Below, one piece after another: positions 26,595 through 29,453 of a stretch of DNA of 32,526 bases. The stretch covers positions 1 through 32,526 of the forward strand of contig CAYZVU010000002.1 in assembly GCA_964482075.1 (NCBI GenBank). Direction: 5' to 3'. Every line of letters begins with the position of its first letter. Positions within the stretch are counted from its first letter, which is position 1. Position numbers and translations under genes: made by a program. The notes under the pieces are model-generated. The model ran no database searches, had not been told where the DNA came from, and saw nothing but the letters and a program-made list of their open reading frames with translations. This DNA comes from Candidatus Woesearchaeota archaeon. GTDB lineage: Archaea > Nanobdellota > Nanobdellia > Pacearchaeales > GW2011-AR1.

Positions 26595-29453
26595 TTATAA
26601 TTTTAAACTTATACTTTTACTAACCCCATCGTGCATTGAGATTCCGTATAGATTTGTAGCTTGAGAGATTATTTCGTCGTTGTGGGAGATTATAATGTAT
26701 TGCCCTTTTTCCATATATCTTTTTAATAATCCTGCTAGGCGGCCCGAATTTCTTTTGTCTAAGGCCGCATCTATTTCATCTAGGATATAGAAGCAGTATG
26801 GGTTTAATTCTTGTATTGCGAAGATTAATGCGAGGGCAACTAATGTTTGTTCTCCTCCGGAAAGGGCTGTTACATCAAAATATTTTCCATGTCCGGTTTT
26901 AACAATTATATTAACCCCTCCTGCGAAAGGGTCTTTCCTATTTTCTAAATCTAAAGTTACTTCTCCTTTTGCACTTAGTTGAGAAAAATTCTTGGTGAAG
27001 GTATCATTTAATTTATCGAGAGTTGTTAGAAAAGTTTTTTTCTTTTTTATATCAATTGTGTGGATTATTCTTAAAATTCCTTGTTTTTCTTTTTCAATTA
27101 TTTCTACTTTTTCTTTTATGGAATCATATTCTTGTTTTACTGAATCATAAACCTCTAGAGATCTTAAATTCACAGAGCCTATTCTCACTATTATTTCTTG
27201 GGAATTATTGAGTTTTTCTCTTAGTTTTTCTCTGTTCATTTTTATTATTTCAATATTTGGGAATTCTAGCATTTCTGTTTCAAAATTTTCTATTTCTGCC
27301 CCTGTTCTTGCTTTTTCCACATTTAGATTGTTTTTTTCATGTTCAATAAAGATAATTTTATTTTGTTTTTCTAAAGATATTGATTCATTATCTCTAATTT
27401 GCTTTTGATATTTTTCTTTTTCTGCAAGTAGTTTTTCGAATTTTTTACTTAGTTCTTCTTCTTGTTTTCTTTTTTTATCGAGTGAAGTTTCTATTCTTTG
27501 GGTTTCTTCACTTATTTCTTTATTCTCTTGATTAAAATCTTCTTCATCTCTTATAAGTTGCTTTAATGTTATTTTTGCACGTTCAAGTTCTTTTTGTTTA
27601 AATGAAACTTCTGAGTCTACATTTTCTTCTGTTCTTAAGGAAATTTCTTGGACTTCTACTCTGGCGGTTTCATATTTATATTCTATATTTGAATTTTCAT
27701 CAAAATTTGATTCAAGATATTTTTTTCTTTTATTTAATTCTAAAAGTTCTTTTTTTAGTATTTCTGTTTTTTCGTGGAGAGCTTGAATTTGTTTTCTTTT
27801 TTCTTCAATGTTGGAAATTTTTATTAAATCTGATTCTCTGTTTGAAATTTCTATTTCTGTTTTTTCTATTTCTTGTCTTAAAATATCTTTTTTAGAATAA
27901 ATTTCATTTAATTCTTTGTCTGCTTTTTTTATTTCTTCTTTAAGTTTGTTTATTTTTGGAATAGTTTCTTGGTTTATACATCCAATATGTTCACTAGTTA
28001 TCTTGCTTTTGCAAATTGGGCAAATATCTATTTTGGATATTTTTTCAATTAATTTATTATGGTTCTCAATTTCCTGTTCATTCGCATAGGATATTTTTTC
28101 AAGTTCTTTTTCTTTTTTTTCAAAGTCGTATAGTATTTGTTTTTTTTCAGATAAATTTATTTTTAATATTTCTATTTTATGGGAGTCGGTTTTTCTATCA
28201 AATAAATTTTTTGAAATACTATTTATTTGTGTTACTAAGAATTCTGATTCTGAGTAATAGTTTTGAAAAATTGTTTTTTTATCTTGTATCCTCTCTTTAA
28301 TTGTTTTTAATTCTGTCTTTATCATATAGAATTTTTTTCTTTGTTCTTCTAATTTTTCAAGTTCTTGTTTTTTGTGGGTTATTTCTTTTTGTGTTTTATT
28401 TATCGTCGGTGATTCTTTTTGAAGTTCTTTTATTGAAATTTCATTATTTCTTATGTTTTCTTGGAGTTCGTTTTTTTGTTTGGAAATTCTAAATAATTTG
28501 TTTTCAGAATTTTCTAGTTTCACATTTAATCCTGCAAGATTTGCTCTTAAATTTGCGATTTCTTGGTTTAATTTTTCTTGTTCCAGTCCTGTTTCTTGTT
28601 GTATTTGAGAACTAATCAAATTTATTTTTGTTTCTAAATTTATTATAGTTGTTCTGATGGATGTTTTTTGGGCTTGTATTTTTTCTATTTCTTGATTCTT
28701 TTTTCCTACATCTATTATTATTATTTGATTTTCTTTTCTTTTCTCTATTAGTTTTGAATGGATAATACTTGCTTTGAATTTTTTTACATCTTGTTCAAGT
28801 TTTTTAAATCTTAGAGCTTGTTGTCTTTCTTTTTCTAAGTTGTTTAGAAATGTGGTTCTTTCCCTTAATATCGCCAAAACTTCTTTTAATTTTTCATCTG
28901 TTCTATCTAGTTCTTTCAGAGATTTGGATTTTCGCATTTCATAAATAGATATTCCTGCGACTTCCTCTATTACTTTCCTTCTTTCTTCATTTTGCATTCT
29001 TACAAAATTTTGAATTTCTCCTTGAAGAATTATATTAAATCCGTTTGGGTCTATCCCGGCTTGTGCCAATAAAGATAAGATTTCTTGTCGTGTTTTTGTT
29101 TCATTGTTTATTTTATATACACTTTGTCCATTTTTTCTTACGATTCTTTTTAATGAAATTTCTTGAGAATCTATTGAGAAAATTTTGTCGCTGTTGTCGA
29201 AGACCATTTCTACTGAGGCTTCTTTTGAGGGGCTTGCTATTTTTGTTCCTTGAAAAATAAGATTTTTTGCCTTTGCTGCACGCATGGATTTTATGCTTAA
29301 TCTCCCTAATACAAAACAGAGCGCATCTGAAACATTACTTTTCCCAGAGCCATTTGGGCCAAGAATTACATTAATTCCTTGAGTGAAAGGGAGTTCTGTT
29401 TTTTTTGCAAAACTTTTGAATCCGTGCATCACCAATTTTTTTATGTGGACCAT
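26595..29453 (-). CDS. smc: SMC chromosome-segregation ATPase, atypical: hinge-less with central CxxC hook
   Basis: SMC-type head motifs [120 protein letters not shown]. Long K/E-rich coiled coil. [14 protein letters not shown] at residues 476-489 of 952. Confidence 0.85.
   Translation of the reverse strand: [952 protein letters not shown]

What the first reader, a model, noticed from the sequence alone, without database searches (positions are those of the whole stretch)
26595..29453. SMC with canonical SMC heads but no hinge: a Rad50-type CxxC zinc hook sits at the exact centre of the coiled coil
Both head halves are unmistakably SMC-type rather than Rad50-type. The N-terminal half has [39 protein letters not shown] and [28 protein letters not shown]. 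The C-terminal half has [36 protein letters not shown] and [16 protein letters not shown], whereas Rad50 has DEPTxxLD. These align closely with Pyrococcus SMC as I remember it. The ~150-200-aa globular hinge of canonical SMCs is missing. The protein is only 952 aa, and its centre is continuous K/E/I/L-rich coiled-coil sequence. At residues 478-481 (nt 28011-28022, minus strand; midpoint of 952 is 476) lies [14 protein letters not shown]. This closely resembles the Rad50 zinc hook (CPVC...LTDEH in Pyrococcus Rad50, from memory). It implies dimerisation through a Zn-coordinated hook instead of a hinge, that is, an SMC/Rad50 architectural hybrid. No scpA/scpB kleisin genes or mre11 are adjacent. 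I do not know of a described condensin-type SMC with this architecture.
Basis: partly seen in the sequence, partly recalled or inferred. Interest (0 to 1): 0.8.

Follow-up and report, generated by a model that had tools for sequence, protein, structure and literature searches.

The report
Archaeal SMC with zinc hook, not hinge
A whole lineage of tiny archaea (Pacearchaeota) has a chromosome-organising SMC protein whose usual globular 'hinge' has been replaced by the short zinc-binding 'hook' otherwise typical of the DNA-repair protein Rad50, which amounts to a natural version of a domain swap so far only engineered in the laboratory.

Summary
ORF 26595-29453(-) encodes a 952-aa protein. Its ATPase heads are clearly SMC-type (TIGR02169 495 bits; best Rad50 model 101 bits). 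Its two ~310-340-residue coiled-coil arms align colinearly with those of hinge-bearing SMCs. There is no hinge: no Pfam hit at E<=10, while sister SMCs hit SMC_hinge at 1e-29 to 1e-33. In place of the ~180-aa hinge is a 12-residue loop, [14 protein letters not shown]. CPxC is present in 120/120 close homologs and in all 19 divergent full-length cluster representatives (down to 38% identity). C478, P479 and C481 are, with G289, the only invariant arm residues. The apex is recognised as a Rad50 zinc hook by Pfam (22/26 fragments), archaeal Rad50/ASRP NCBIfam models (25/25), hhalign against PDB 1L8D (90%) and fold search (1L8D top hit). Hook-SMCs form one clade (92/100 bootstraps) labelled Pacearchaeota. 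The nearest hinge-bearing relatives are Woesearchaeota and share the RNase HII-SMC synteny, so this is an in-place hinge-to-hook replacement in the orthologous smc gene. I found no description in the literature; only the engineered B. subtilis Smc(Zh) chimera is known. Zn binding, dimerisation and the kleisin partner remain untested. Verdict: a new variant of a known kind; interest 0.7.

The parts
26595..29453 (-). Complete hook-SMC gene (952 codons plus stop)
   Evidence: ORF list; Pfam SMC_N 1.4e-54 spanning residues 3-945; TIGR02169 5.6e-148
28953..29453 (-). N-terminal half of the SMC ATPase head (residues 1-167), with Walker A GPNGSGKS (32-39, nt 29337-29360), R58 and the Q-loop Q144
   Evidence: Aligns with Pyrococcus Smc head 5XEI residues 1-260 at E=1.7e-57; motif residues are invariant in 44 homologs
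28032..28952 (-). Ascending coiled-coil arm helix (residues 168-474), with breaks at 345-351 and 416-423
   Evidence: AF2 secondary structure; heptad score 0.62 against shuffled 0.37; colinear with the N-arm of hinge SMC P0157 (query 1-479 = P0157 1-481)
27996..28031 (-). Apex loop (residues 475-486, [12 protein letters not shown]) carrying the CPxC zinc-hook motif (C478-C481 = nt 28011-28022); it stands where relatives have the ~180-aa hinge
   Evidence: CPxC in 120/120 homologs and all divergent representatives; Pfam Rad50_zn_hook hits 22/26 fragments, best 3e-07; hhalign against the 1L8D sequence 90%, E=1.6e-06; fold search top hit 1L8D; AF2 fragment pLDDT 92
26976..27995 (-). Descending coiled-coil arm helix (residues 487-826), with breaks at 587-589, 605-611 and 730-740
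   Evidence: AF2 secondary structure; heptad score 0.53; query 496-951 = P0157 661-1132, directly after its hinge at 490-642
26598..26975 (-). C-terminal half of the SMC ATPase head (residues 827-952), with signature LSGGE (864-868, nt 26850-26864), Walker B/D-loop [12 protein letters not shown] (888-899, nt 26757-26792) and H-loop H924
   Evidence: Aligns with 5XEI residues 270-509 at E=2.2e-42; motif residues are invariant
30529..31194 (-). RNase HII gene, the conserved upstream syntenic neighbour of both hook-type and hinge-type SMC genes in this part of DPANN
   Evidence: Pfam RNase_HII 7.3e-47; directly upstream of hook-SMC in L001, L002, L084 and L085 and of hinge-SMC in L004 and L086/L087

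Best explanation
This is the orthologue of the archaeal chromosomal SMC (condensin-type Smc) in Pacearchaeota. In the stem of this lineage the globular hinge dimerisation domain was replaced in place by a Rad50/ASRP-type zinc hook, while the SMC heads and full-length arms were kept. Shown: the SMC heads carry all ATPase motifs; the arms are colinear with those of hinge-bearing SMCs and have tightly fixed lengths; the hinge is absent; a strictly conserved CPxC sits at the coiled-coil apex; the apex resembles Rad50 hooks; the hook clade has a single origin; and synteny is shared with hinge-SMC genes. Inferred: two protomers each contribute C478 and C481 to one tetrahedral Zn2+ site, as in Rad50, giving a constitutive homodimer joined at the arm tips. 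The ATP-driven head engagement cycle then acts on DNA as in Smc-ScpA(B), probably with a kleisin encoded elsewhere in the genome. The hook would supply only the dimerisation function of the hinge, which implies that hinge-specific activities (DNA binding, hinge gate) are dispensable for SMC function in these organisms.
For: Head identity: TIGR02169 494.6 bits and TIGR02168 485 bits, against the best Rad50 model at 101 bits; PDB Pyrococcus Smc head E=8e-101 against Rad50 heads ~1e-14; Foldseek top hits are condensin Smc4 and the Pyrococcus Smc head-joint. Hinge absence, with positive control. Precise swap: query 1-479 = P0157 1-481 and query 496-951 = P0157 661-1132, bracketing P0157's hinge at 490-642. 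Hook conservation. Hook homology or similarity: Pfam Rad50_zn_hook in 22/26 fragments (best 3e-07), with two full-length homologs above the gathering score; NCBIfam Rad50_Sulf 25/25 and ASRP 25/25 matching the central part of those profiles, against SMC models 3/25; hhalign with the verified 1L8D sequence 90%, E=1.6e-06, aligning CPxC-x3-[IL]T-x-EH in register; AF2 hairpin pLDDT 92 with 1L8D as the top PDB fold hit and 5GOX at rank 6. Single origin: a clade with all 19 hook-SMCs and no hinge-SMC in 92/100 bootstraps. Taxonomy: hook = Pacearchaeota/Nanoarchaeota labels; nearest named hinge relatives = Woesearchaeota. Orthology: RNase HII-SMC synteny is shared by hook loci and hinge loci. Arm-length constraint: Walker A->hook distance of 446 residues in 103/120 and hook->LSGGE distance of 386 in 113/120. 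Functional precedent: the B. subtilis Smc(Zh) chimera carrying the P. furiosus Rad50 hook supports normal growth and keeps the same arm-length periodicity (PMC5344682), and Rad50 with a MukB hinge is functional in fission yeast (PMC6969161).
Against: Zn binding and hook-mediated dimerisation are not demonstrated, and no dimer model could be computed. Structural similarity to Rad50 hooks is top-ranked but statistically weak (Foldseek E=0.014; no hit at E<=0.001). A profile of the hook region does not retrieve Rad50 hooks from PDB sequences. The query's own Pfam hook score (17.6-18 bits) is below the 24.3-bit cut-off. No kleisin (ScpA), ScpB or Mre11 was found within +/-10 kb in five hook-SMC loci, so the partner set is unknown. 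A genome-wide check for a second, canonical SMC in the same genomes was not possible. The tree is NJ on head domains only.
Confidence: 0.75

Rival explanations
1. The protein works in a Rad50-like role. In these reduced genomes the hook-SMC has taken over, or combined, DNA-end tethering and repair functions, pairing with an Mre11-type nuclease or bridging DNA molecules through inter-complex hooks, rather than acting as a condensin.
For: The apex is Rad50/ASRP-type at both sequence and fold level. No kleisin gene is linked to it. The conserved neighbours are DNA-metabolism genes (RNase HII, DnaG-type Toprim, AP endonuclease).
Against: The heads are SMC-type by a wide margin, and the D-loop/Walker B reads [10 protein letters not shown], not the Rad50 form. 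The arms are colinear with SMC arms. The gene occupies the same syntenic slot as hinge-SMC in sister lineages. No Mre11-type metallophosphatase lies within +/-10 kb in five loci. smc and scpA are also unlinked in several other archaeal orders (PMC7055376), so lack of linkage says little.
Confidence: 0.1
2. The CPxC apex is only a conserved structural turn, or an intramolecular or redox element, and does not mediate Zn-dependent dimerisation. The protein would dimerise through arm-arm and head-head contacts only, or act as a monomer.
For: No experimental or multimer-model evidence for Zn was obtained here. Three ~800-aa 'mini-SMCs' nested in the hook clade have lost the distal arm and the cysteines altogether, so an apex hook is not indispensable in every descendant.
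Against: The two cysteines and the proline are the only invariant arm residues besides G289 across 38-65% identity. One protomer has only two conserved Cys at the apex, since C492 is not conserved, which is too few for an intramolecular tetrahedral site. The motif context CPxC-x3-[IL]T-x-EH matches the Rad50 hook, whose inter-protomer Zn(Cys)4 site is structurally established (1L8D).
Confidence: 0.1
3. It is a member of the archaea-specific SMC-related protein family (ASRP: ClsN/Sph), which is already known to carry a zinc hook.
For: The NCBIfam ASRP model matches the central region (E=1.1e-21 for the full protein; 25/25 hook fragments). ASRPs are archaeal, SMC-like and hook-bearing (PMC9389158).
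Against: The ASRP score of 77 bits is far below its 300-bit cut-off, and the best stretch covers only the coiled coil and hook (residues 313-609). The SMC models score ~490 bits over both heads. The heads and arms are colinear with hinge-bearing SMCs and group with them.
Confidence: 0.02
4. It is a defence-system SMC (Lamassu LmuB, Wadjet JetC or similar), or else an assembly or gene-calling artefact.
For: A ParE-like toxin and a small antitoxin-like ORF lie directly downstream. PADLOC gives generic hits: mad3 157 bits, LmuB 66 bits.
Against: Defence models score far below the chromosomal SMC model (495 bits). The neighbourhood is housekeeping and syntenic across members that are only 38% identical. 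More than 120 independent assemblies give the same ~952-aa protein. The toxin-antitoxin pair is not conserved at this position.
Confidence: 0.02

Closest known systems
Prokaryotic/archaeal Smc of the Smc-ScpA(B) condensin (TIGR02169/TIGR02168; e.g. Pyrococcus Smc, PDB 5XEI, 4I99)
   Same: The ATPase head halves carry all motifs. The ~310-340-residue antiparallel arm has paired discontinuities and is colinear with hinge-SMC arms to within a few residues. The gene occupies the same genomic slot next to RNase HII as hinge-SMC in sister DPANN lineages.
   Different: The ~180-aa hinge (PF06470) is entirely missing and a 12-residue CPxC loop takes its place. The full-length score (495 bits) therefore falls below the NCBIfam equivalog cut-off (729 bits). 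The kleisin partner has not been identified.
Engineered B. subtilis Smc(Zh) chimera: Smc with the P. furiosus Rad50 zinc hook in place of the hinge (Burmann et al. 2017, PMC5344682)
   Same: The architecture is the same: SMC heads and arms joined by a Rad50-type hook. The chimera is functional in vivo and still requires correct arm length. The natural family likewise shows very tight arm-length conservation.
   Different: The chimera is man-made and carries a transplanted stretch of Rad50 coiled coil. The Pacearchaeota protein is natural, ancient (members down to 38% identity) and keeps SMC-derived arms up to about 10-20 residues from the cysteines.
Rad50/SbcC zinc hook (Pfam PF04423; PDB 1L8D, 5GOX, 6ZFF)
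   Same: CPxC lies at the apex of an antiparallel coiled coil, with an extended motif CPxC-x3-[IL]T-x-EH. These hooks are the top fold and profile matches.
   Different: The heads are not Rad50-type (101 bits against a 700-bit cut-off). No Mre11 is linked. The residues after the second Cys are K-S/N rather than G-R.
ASRP family (Sulfolobus ClsN/coalescin, Halobacterium Sph1/2; NF045487; PMC9389158)
   Same: An archaeal SMC-superfamily protein that has a zinc hook instead of a hinge and acts on chromosome organisation.
   Different: ASRPs are ~600 aa with much shorter arms and distinct heads. The query scores 77 bits against a 300-bit cut-off, and its heads and arms are bona fide SMC.

Membership tests
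SMC sensu stricto (prokaryotic Smc, TIGR02169/TIGR02168; Pfam SMC_N + SMC_hinge) | Split ABC ATPase head with Walker A, Q-loop, signature LSGGE, Walker B/D-loop and H-loop, closer to SMC than to Rad50, RecN or MukB | tested here: met
   SMC_N 1.4e-54; TIGR02169 5.6e-148 against Rad50 3.5e-29 and RecN 1e-08; 5XEI 8e-101; motif residues invariant
SMC sensu stricto (prokaryotic Smc, TIGR02169/TIGR02168; Pfam SMC_N + SMC_hinge) | Long intramolecular antiparallel coiled-coil arm (~300+ residues per strand) | tested here: met
   AF2 helices 168-474 and 487-826 with paired breaks; heptad signal; colinear with hinge-SMC arms
SMC sensu stricto (prokaryotic Smc, TIGR02169/TIGR02168; Pfam SMC_N + SMC_hinge) | Globular hinge dimerisation domain (PF06470) at the arm tip | tested here: not met
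   No hit at E<=10; a local jackhmmer hinge profile hits 100 relatives but no hook-SMC; sister proteins score 1e-29 to 1e-33
SMC sensu stricto (prokaryotic Smc, TIGR02169/TIGR02168; Pfam SMC_N + SMC_hinge) | Whole-protein score at or above the curated equivalog cut-off | tested here: not met
   494.6 bits against a 729.4 cut-off (TIGR02169); 485 against 567 (TIGR02168); the shortfall is explained by the missing hinge
SMC sensu stricto (prokaryotic Smc, TIGR02169/TIGR02168; Pfam SMC_N + SMC_hinge) | Kleisin partner (ScpA) bridging the heads | tested here: inconclusive
   No PF02616 or PF04079 hit within +/-10 kb in 5 hook loci. A local ScpA profile that finds scpA in 14 other archaeal loci finds none here. 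Bait search uninformative. A whole-genome inventory was not possible.
Rad50/SbcC | CxxC zinc hook at the apex of the coiled coil | tested here: met
   (sequence and predicted fold; Zn itself was not tested)
Rad50/SbcC | Rad50-type ATPase head reaching the family cut-off | tested here: not met
   NF003034 101 bits against 700; NF041034 84 against 1000; TIGR00618 36 against 478
Rad50/SbcC | Partner Mre11/SbcD nuclease, usually in the same operon | tested here: not met
   No metallophosphatase/Mre11 domain in the window ORFs scanned or in 4 other loci; genome-wide status unknown
ASRP (ClsN/Sph; NF045487) | Whole-protein match to the ASRP equivalog model (>=300 bits), ~600-aa architecture | tested here: not met
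   77.1 bits, with the best stretch only in the coiled coil and hook; the protein is 952 aa with SMC heads
Defence SMC-like ATPases (LmuB, JetC, PtuA, AriA; PADLOC) | Best match to a defence-family model and defence-island context | tested here: not met
   mad3 157 bits and LmuB 66 bits, far below SMC 495 bits; conserved housekeeping synteny

The most novel reading that the evidence does not exclude
Pacearchaeota run their chromosomes with a hinge-less SMC that works as a minimal machine. A Zn-hook-linked SMC dimer may lack a conventional kleisin/kite set, and may double as the cell's Rad50-like DNA tether in a reduced genome. Some descendants (the ~800-aa mini-SMCs) have lost even the distal arm and the hook. 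If true, neither the hinge nor any specific apex domain is needed for core SMC function, and SMC and Rad50 functions can merge in one protein.
Probability: 0.15. Interest if true: 0.85.

Novelty: new variant of a known kind. Interest (0 to 1): 0.7.

Why it matters
The role of the SMC hinge is a long-running question. It has been proposed to bind DNA, to act as the main DNA entry gate in cohesin (review PMC10512200) and to hand DNA to the heads during loop extrusion. The only evidence that it might be just a dimerisation module comes from engineered chimeras (PMC5344682; PMC6969161). A whole archaeal lineage that has lived for a long time (members down to 38% identity) with a zinc hook instead of a hinge is a natural experiment pointing the same way. 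In these organisms SMC function does not need a hinge, while arm length stays under very tight constraint. The family offers a compact, naturally optimised SMC for structural and single-molecule work. It also gives a test case for how domain swaps occur between SMC-superfamily members, and a marker that separates Pacearchaeota from Woesearchaeota. Finally, databases annotate these proteins simply as 'chromosome segregation protein SMC', which hides the difference.

Tried and rejected
It returned only canonical SMCs (best 40% identity), so it was no use for hook-family taxonomy. It was reused as a source of archaeal smc-scpA loci and of L004. (2) Kleisin search. Pfam on the scanned window ORFs found no ScpA. 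A local jackhmmer ScpA profile recovered scpA next to smc in 14 euryarchaeal/Asgard loci but none in Pacearchaeota, Woesearchaeota, Nanoarchaeota or Micrarchaeota loci. The ScpA of L007 used as bait in the large protein database returned only 21 Thermococcus-like or haloarchaeal hits, which is uninformative because of the word index. (3) The unannotated ~250-aa convergent neighbours of SMC were tested as a possible conserved partner and are not homologous between loci. (4) The downstream surface protein as a synteny marker is conserved within Pacearchaeota (50% identity) but not detectable in L005 or L006. RNase HII proved the useful marker instead. (5) The hook fragment or its profile against PDB sequences by HMMER gave only coiled-coil noise such as haemagglutinin HA2. 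(6) The first bootstrap included a 737-aa fragment by mistake and gave 44%; it was redone on complete sequences. (7) Alignment A3 contained a one-residue typo in row 11 that I introduced; it was replaced by A4, with negligible effect. (8) The Krishnan et al. 2020 ABC-ATPase classification, the paper most likely to mention such a variant in passing, is not held. (9) A dimer-with-Zn model could not be made with the tools. One large protein search was left unused on purpose.
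Full report
OBSERVATION. The ORF at 26595-29453 on the minus strand is real and encodes 952 aa. 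The CPIC lies at residues 478-481 (nt 28011-28022), two residues from the arithmetic midpoint, and only three other cysteines occur in the protein. Pfam finds SMC_N spanning residues 3-945 (E=1.4e-54) and neither SMC_hinge nor anything else globular in the middle, even at E<=10. NCBIfam gives the two prokaryotic SMC equivalogs at 495 and 485 bits in two stretches (best stretch residues 3-474 on profile positions 1-463 of 1165). Both are below their cut-offs, as expected if the centre of the profile is unmatched. Rad50 models reach only 59-101 bits and ASRP 77 bits. Against PDB sequences the best matches are Pyrococcus Smc heads (5XEI, E=8e-101), while Rad50 heads reach about 1e-14.

NO HINGE, CONTINUOUS ARM. 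An AlphaFold2 model built on 44 homologs (mean pLDDT 75.8) shows helices 168-344, 352-415 and 424-474, a 12-residue loop at 475-486, then helices 487-586, 590-604 and 612-729 and the C-terminal head. The helix breaks pair up (345-351 with 605-611; 416-423 with 587-589), as expected for an antiparallel arm. Foldseek places the model among SMC proteins (condensin Smc4 3e-33; the P. yayanosii Smc head with coiled coil and joint 2e-28). A simple heptad score is 0.62 and 0.53 in the arms against 0.37 +/- 0.024 for shuffled arm sequence. It drops to 0.26 at the apex loop and 0.20-0.24 in the heads. The hinge model is sensitive enough to serve as a control: the closest hinge-bearing relatives score 1e-29 to 1e-33.

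THE FAMILY. A search of the 90%-clustered protein collection returned 120 listed relatives at 65-73% identity, nearly all 943-958 aa (80 of them exactly 952). Where named, they are labelled Pacearchaeota, Nanoarchaeota or 'archaeon' and annotated 'chromosome segregation protein SMC'. All 120 carry CPxC[K/R] at relative position 0.50-0.52. The local consensus is D-[IV]-C-P-[LVI]-C-K-[SN]-x-I-T-x-x-H, with C, P, C, K, T and H invariant in the 44-sequence alignment. An exhaustive search of 50%-identity cluster representatives extended the family to 38% identity. Every full-length representative of ~946-1023 aa has CPxC at relative position 0.47-0.50. In an 18-sequence alignment spanning 38-65% identity, the only invariant positions between residues 215 and 714 are G289, C478, P479 and C481. 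Among the top 150 representatives plus the query, a local hinge profile marks 100 as hinge-bearing, 36 carry the hook, 15 have neither, and none has both. Arm lengths are tightly fixed. The Walker A to hook distance is 446 residues in 103/120 and the hook to LSGGE distance is 386 in 113/120. Among divergent representatives the ranges are 441-461 and 386-404, with one outlier.

WHAT WAS REPLACED. Pairwise profile alignments to 72 hinge-bearing representatives show that homology runs through the N-arm up to residue ~475-479 in the best cases and resumes at ~496-503. For P0157 (1133 aa, hinge at 490-642), query 1-479 matches 1-481 and query 496-951 matches 661-1132. About 16 residues of the query therefore stand where ~179 residues (the hinge plus junctions) stand in the relative, and both arms keep their full, colinear length. 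This is a domain replacement, not an arm truncation.

NATURE OF THE APEX. Scanned alone, the central fragment has Rad50_zn_hook as its best Pfam match (E=0.003, below the gathering score). Two close homologs pass the gathering score (24.8 and 27.0 bits). Of 26 hook-region fragments, 22 hit Rad50_zn_hook (best 3e-07), and no other family is hit by more than two. In NCBIfam all 25 fragments match the central part of archaeal Rad50 models (best 1.1e-09) and of ASRP (best 7.2e-08), but only 3 match an SMC model. hhalign of the hook-region alignment against it gives 90% probability, E=1.6e-06, with [14 protein letters not shown] aligned to GKCPVCGRELTDEH. An AF2 model of residues 400-560 is confident (pLDDT 92, pTM 0.69): helix, 13-residue loop with the CPxC, helix. 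Its best structural match among ~350,000 PDB chains is the Rad50 coiled-coil Zn hook 1L8D (prob 1.00, E=0.014). The P. yayanosii Smc arm segment ranks second, human Rad50 hook 5GOX sixth, and 6ZFF is also listed. These E-values are weak, as expected for helical hairpins, and HMMER against PDB sequences found nothing. I therefore regard 'Rad50/ASRP-type hook' as well supported, and descent from a particular donor as open.

ORIGIN AND ORTHOLOGY. A neighbour-joining tree of head domains puts all hook-SMCs in one clade whose sister group consists only of hinge-bearing SMCs. With complete sequences only, 92/100 bootstrap replicates recover a clade containing all 19 hook-SMCs and no hinge-SMC. Where sources give names, even the most divergent hook representative is Pacearchaeota (P0145, MEM1535251.1). 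The nearest hinge-bearing representatives are Woesearchaeota (P0153, P0160, P0309). RNase HII lies directly upstream on the same strand in four hook loci, including the 38%-identical P0145 and P0143. In the window it is separated from the SMC gene only by two small plus-strand ORFs. The same RNase HII-SMC arrangement occurs with a hinge-bearing SMC in L004 (113-nt gap; SMC_hinge 1.1e-31). RNase HII also lies ~2.4 kb upstream in Woesearchaeota loci L086/L087, which in addition share a downstream FixG_C-like surface protein. The simplest reading is a single in-place replacement of the hinge by a hook in the orthologous smc gene on the Pacearchaeota stem.

MECHANISM (INFERRED). By analogy with Rad50, two protomers each contribute C478 and C481 to one tetrahedral Zn2+, joining the arm tips. 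Only two cysteines per chain are conserved at the apex, because C492 varies, which argues for an inter-chain site. H489 is invariant in close relatives but varies in distant ones and is not a Zn ligand in Rad50. The intact ATPase motifs imply a normal ATP-driven head engagement cycle. That such a design can work is shown experimentally. B. subtilis Smc with the P. furiosus hook in place of its hinge supports normal growth and keeps the same periodic dependence on arm length (PMC5344682), and the converse Rad50-MukB-hinge chimera works in fission yeast (PMC6969161). The very tight natural conservation of arm length, and the match of N-arm length to hinge-bearing relatives within two residues, fit that arm-geometry constraint.

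WHAT REMAINS OPEN. No ScpA, ScpB or Mre11 domain lies in the scanned window ORFs or within +/-10 kb in four other hook loci. A local ScpA profile that works on 14 other archaeal loci finds none here. However, smc and scpA are also unlinked next to hinge-SMCs in the DPANN loci examined and in several archaeal orders, and ScpB is often absent in archaea (PMC7055376). So this is not evidence of absence. I could not inventory a whole Pacearchaeota genome for a kleisin, for Rad50/Mre11 or for a second SMC.

RIVALS. A Rad50 orthologue or an ASRP member is excluded by head scores, arm colinearity and the tree. A defence SMC is excluded by PADLOC scores (mad3 157 bits and LmuB 66 bits against 495 bits for SMC) and by conserved housekeeping synteny. 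An artefact is excluded by more than 120 independent assemblies. Two readings remain possible at ~10% each: a non-dimerising structural turn, and a Rad50-like or merged function.

NOVELTY. Full-text searches combining SMC, zinc hook, hinge, archaea, DPANN, Pacearchaeota and 'lacking the hinge' returned only the engineered chimeras, Rad50 work and the ASRP family. A 2023 review of SMC structure across the tree of life describes the arm as ending in a hinge and mentions no natural hook variant. One likely source (Krishnan et al. 2020) could not be read. I rate the finding a new variant of a known kind and of real interest to the SMC field. It is not categorically new, because all parts and the engineered combination are known.

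Noticed in passing
P0141, P0142, P0144 (and P0149, P0220, P0237, P0256, P0260); they correspond to window residues 1-348 and 609-952 of the SMC (nt 28410-29453 and 26598-27629): A third apex type: ~750-840-aa 'mini-SMCs', labelled Pacearchaeota, with neither hinge nor cysteines. They match the hook-SMC only up to its coiled-coil break at 345-351/605-611 and carry a Cys-free ~100-residue segment instead of the distal arm and hook. Three of them nest at separate places inside the hook clade, which suggests repeated secondary loss. How they dimerise is unknown.
   Followed up: partly
P0124 (1479 aa) and P0129 (1483 aa); the insertion point corresponds to window SMC residues ~36-38 (Walker A, nt ~29340-29348): Some hook-SMCs carry a ~525-aa LAGLIDADG intein inserted in the Walker A P-loop (Intein_splicing 6e-28, LAGLIDADG_3 2e-23). 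About ten representatives of ~1660-1800 aa probably have the same kind of insertion in hinge-type SMCs; this was not checked.
   Followed up: partly
window 26087-26552 (-): A ParE-like toxin (82 aa, PF05016 E=1.2e-4) and a 74-aa antitoxin-like ORF overlap by 8 nt and sit 43 nt downstream of the SMC stop. The pair is not conserved at this position in relatives. In L085 a different toxin-antitoxin pair (NTP_transf_2/HEPN) occupies the same spot directly after the SMC gene, so this may be a hotspot for toxin-antitoxin insertion.
   Followed up: partly
window 1619-7657 (+); L085 1-7471: An archaeal type IV pilus locus (two Pilin_N proteins, a glycosyltransferase, a T2SSE ATPase and two T2SSF proteins). 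A similar locus lies near the hook-SMC in L085, where the T2SSE ATPase itself contains a LAGLIDADG intein.
   Followed up: no
L004 (CAZENX010000059.1): This contig is labelled 'uncultured Methanosarcinales archaeon' but has 31% GC, the RNase HII-SMC synteny seen in DPANN, and the GTDB SMC most similar to the Pacearchaeota protein (40%). It may be a mis-binned or mislabelled DPANN contig.
   Followed up: no
window 1-24000: GC skew is very strongly positive (0.30-0.45) wherever genes are on the plus strand and falls to about -0.09 to 0.14 across the minus-strand SMC region. This looks like a strong purine (G over C) bias of the coding strand at ~30% GC.
   Followed up: no
window 29551-30526 (+): Two plus-strand ORFs are inserted between RNase HII and the SMC gene: a 232-aa wHTH + weak NUDIX protein and an overlapping 101-aa cysteine-rich ORF with no family match. 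They are absent from this position in L002, L084 and L085.
   Followed up: no
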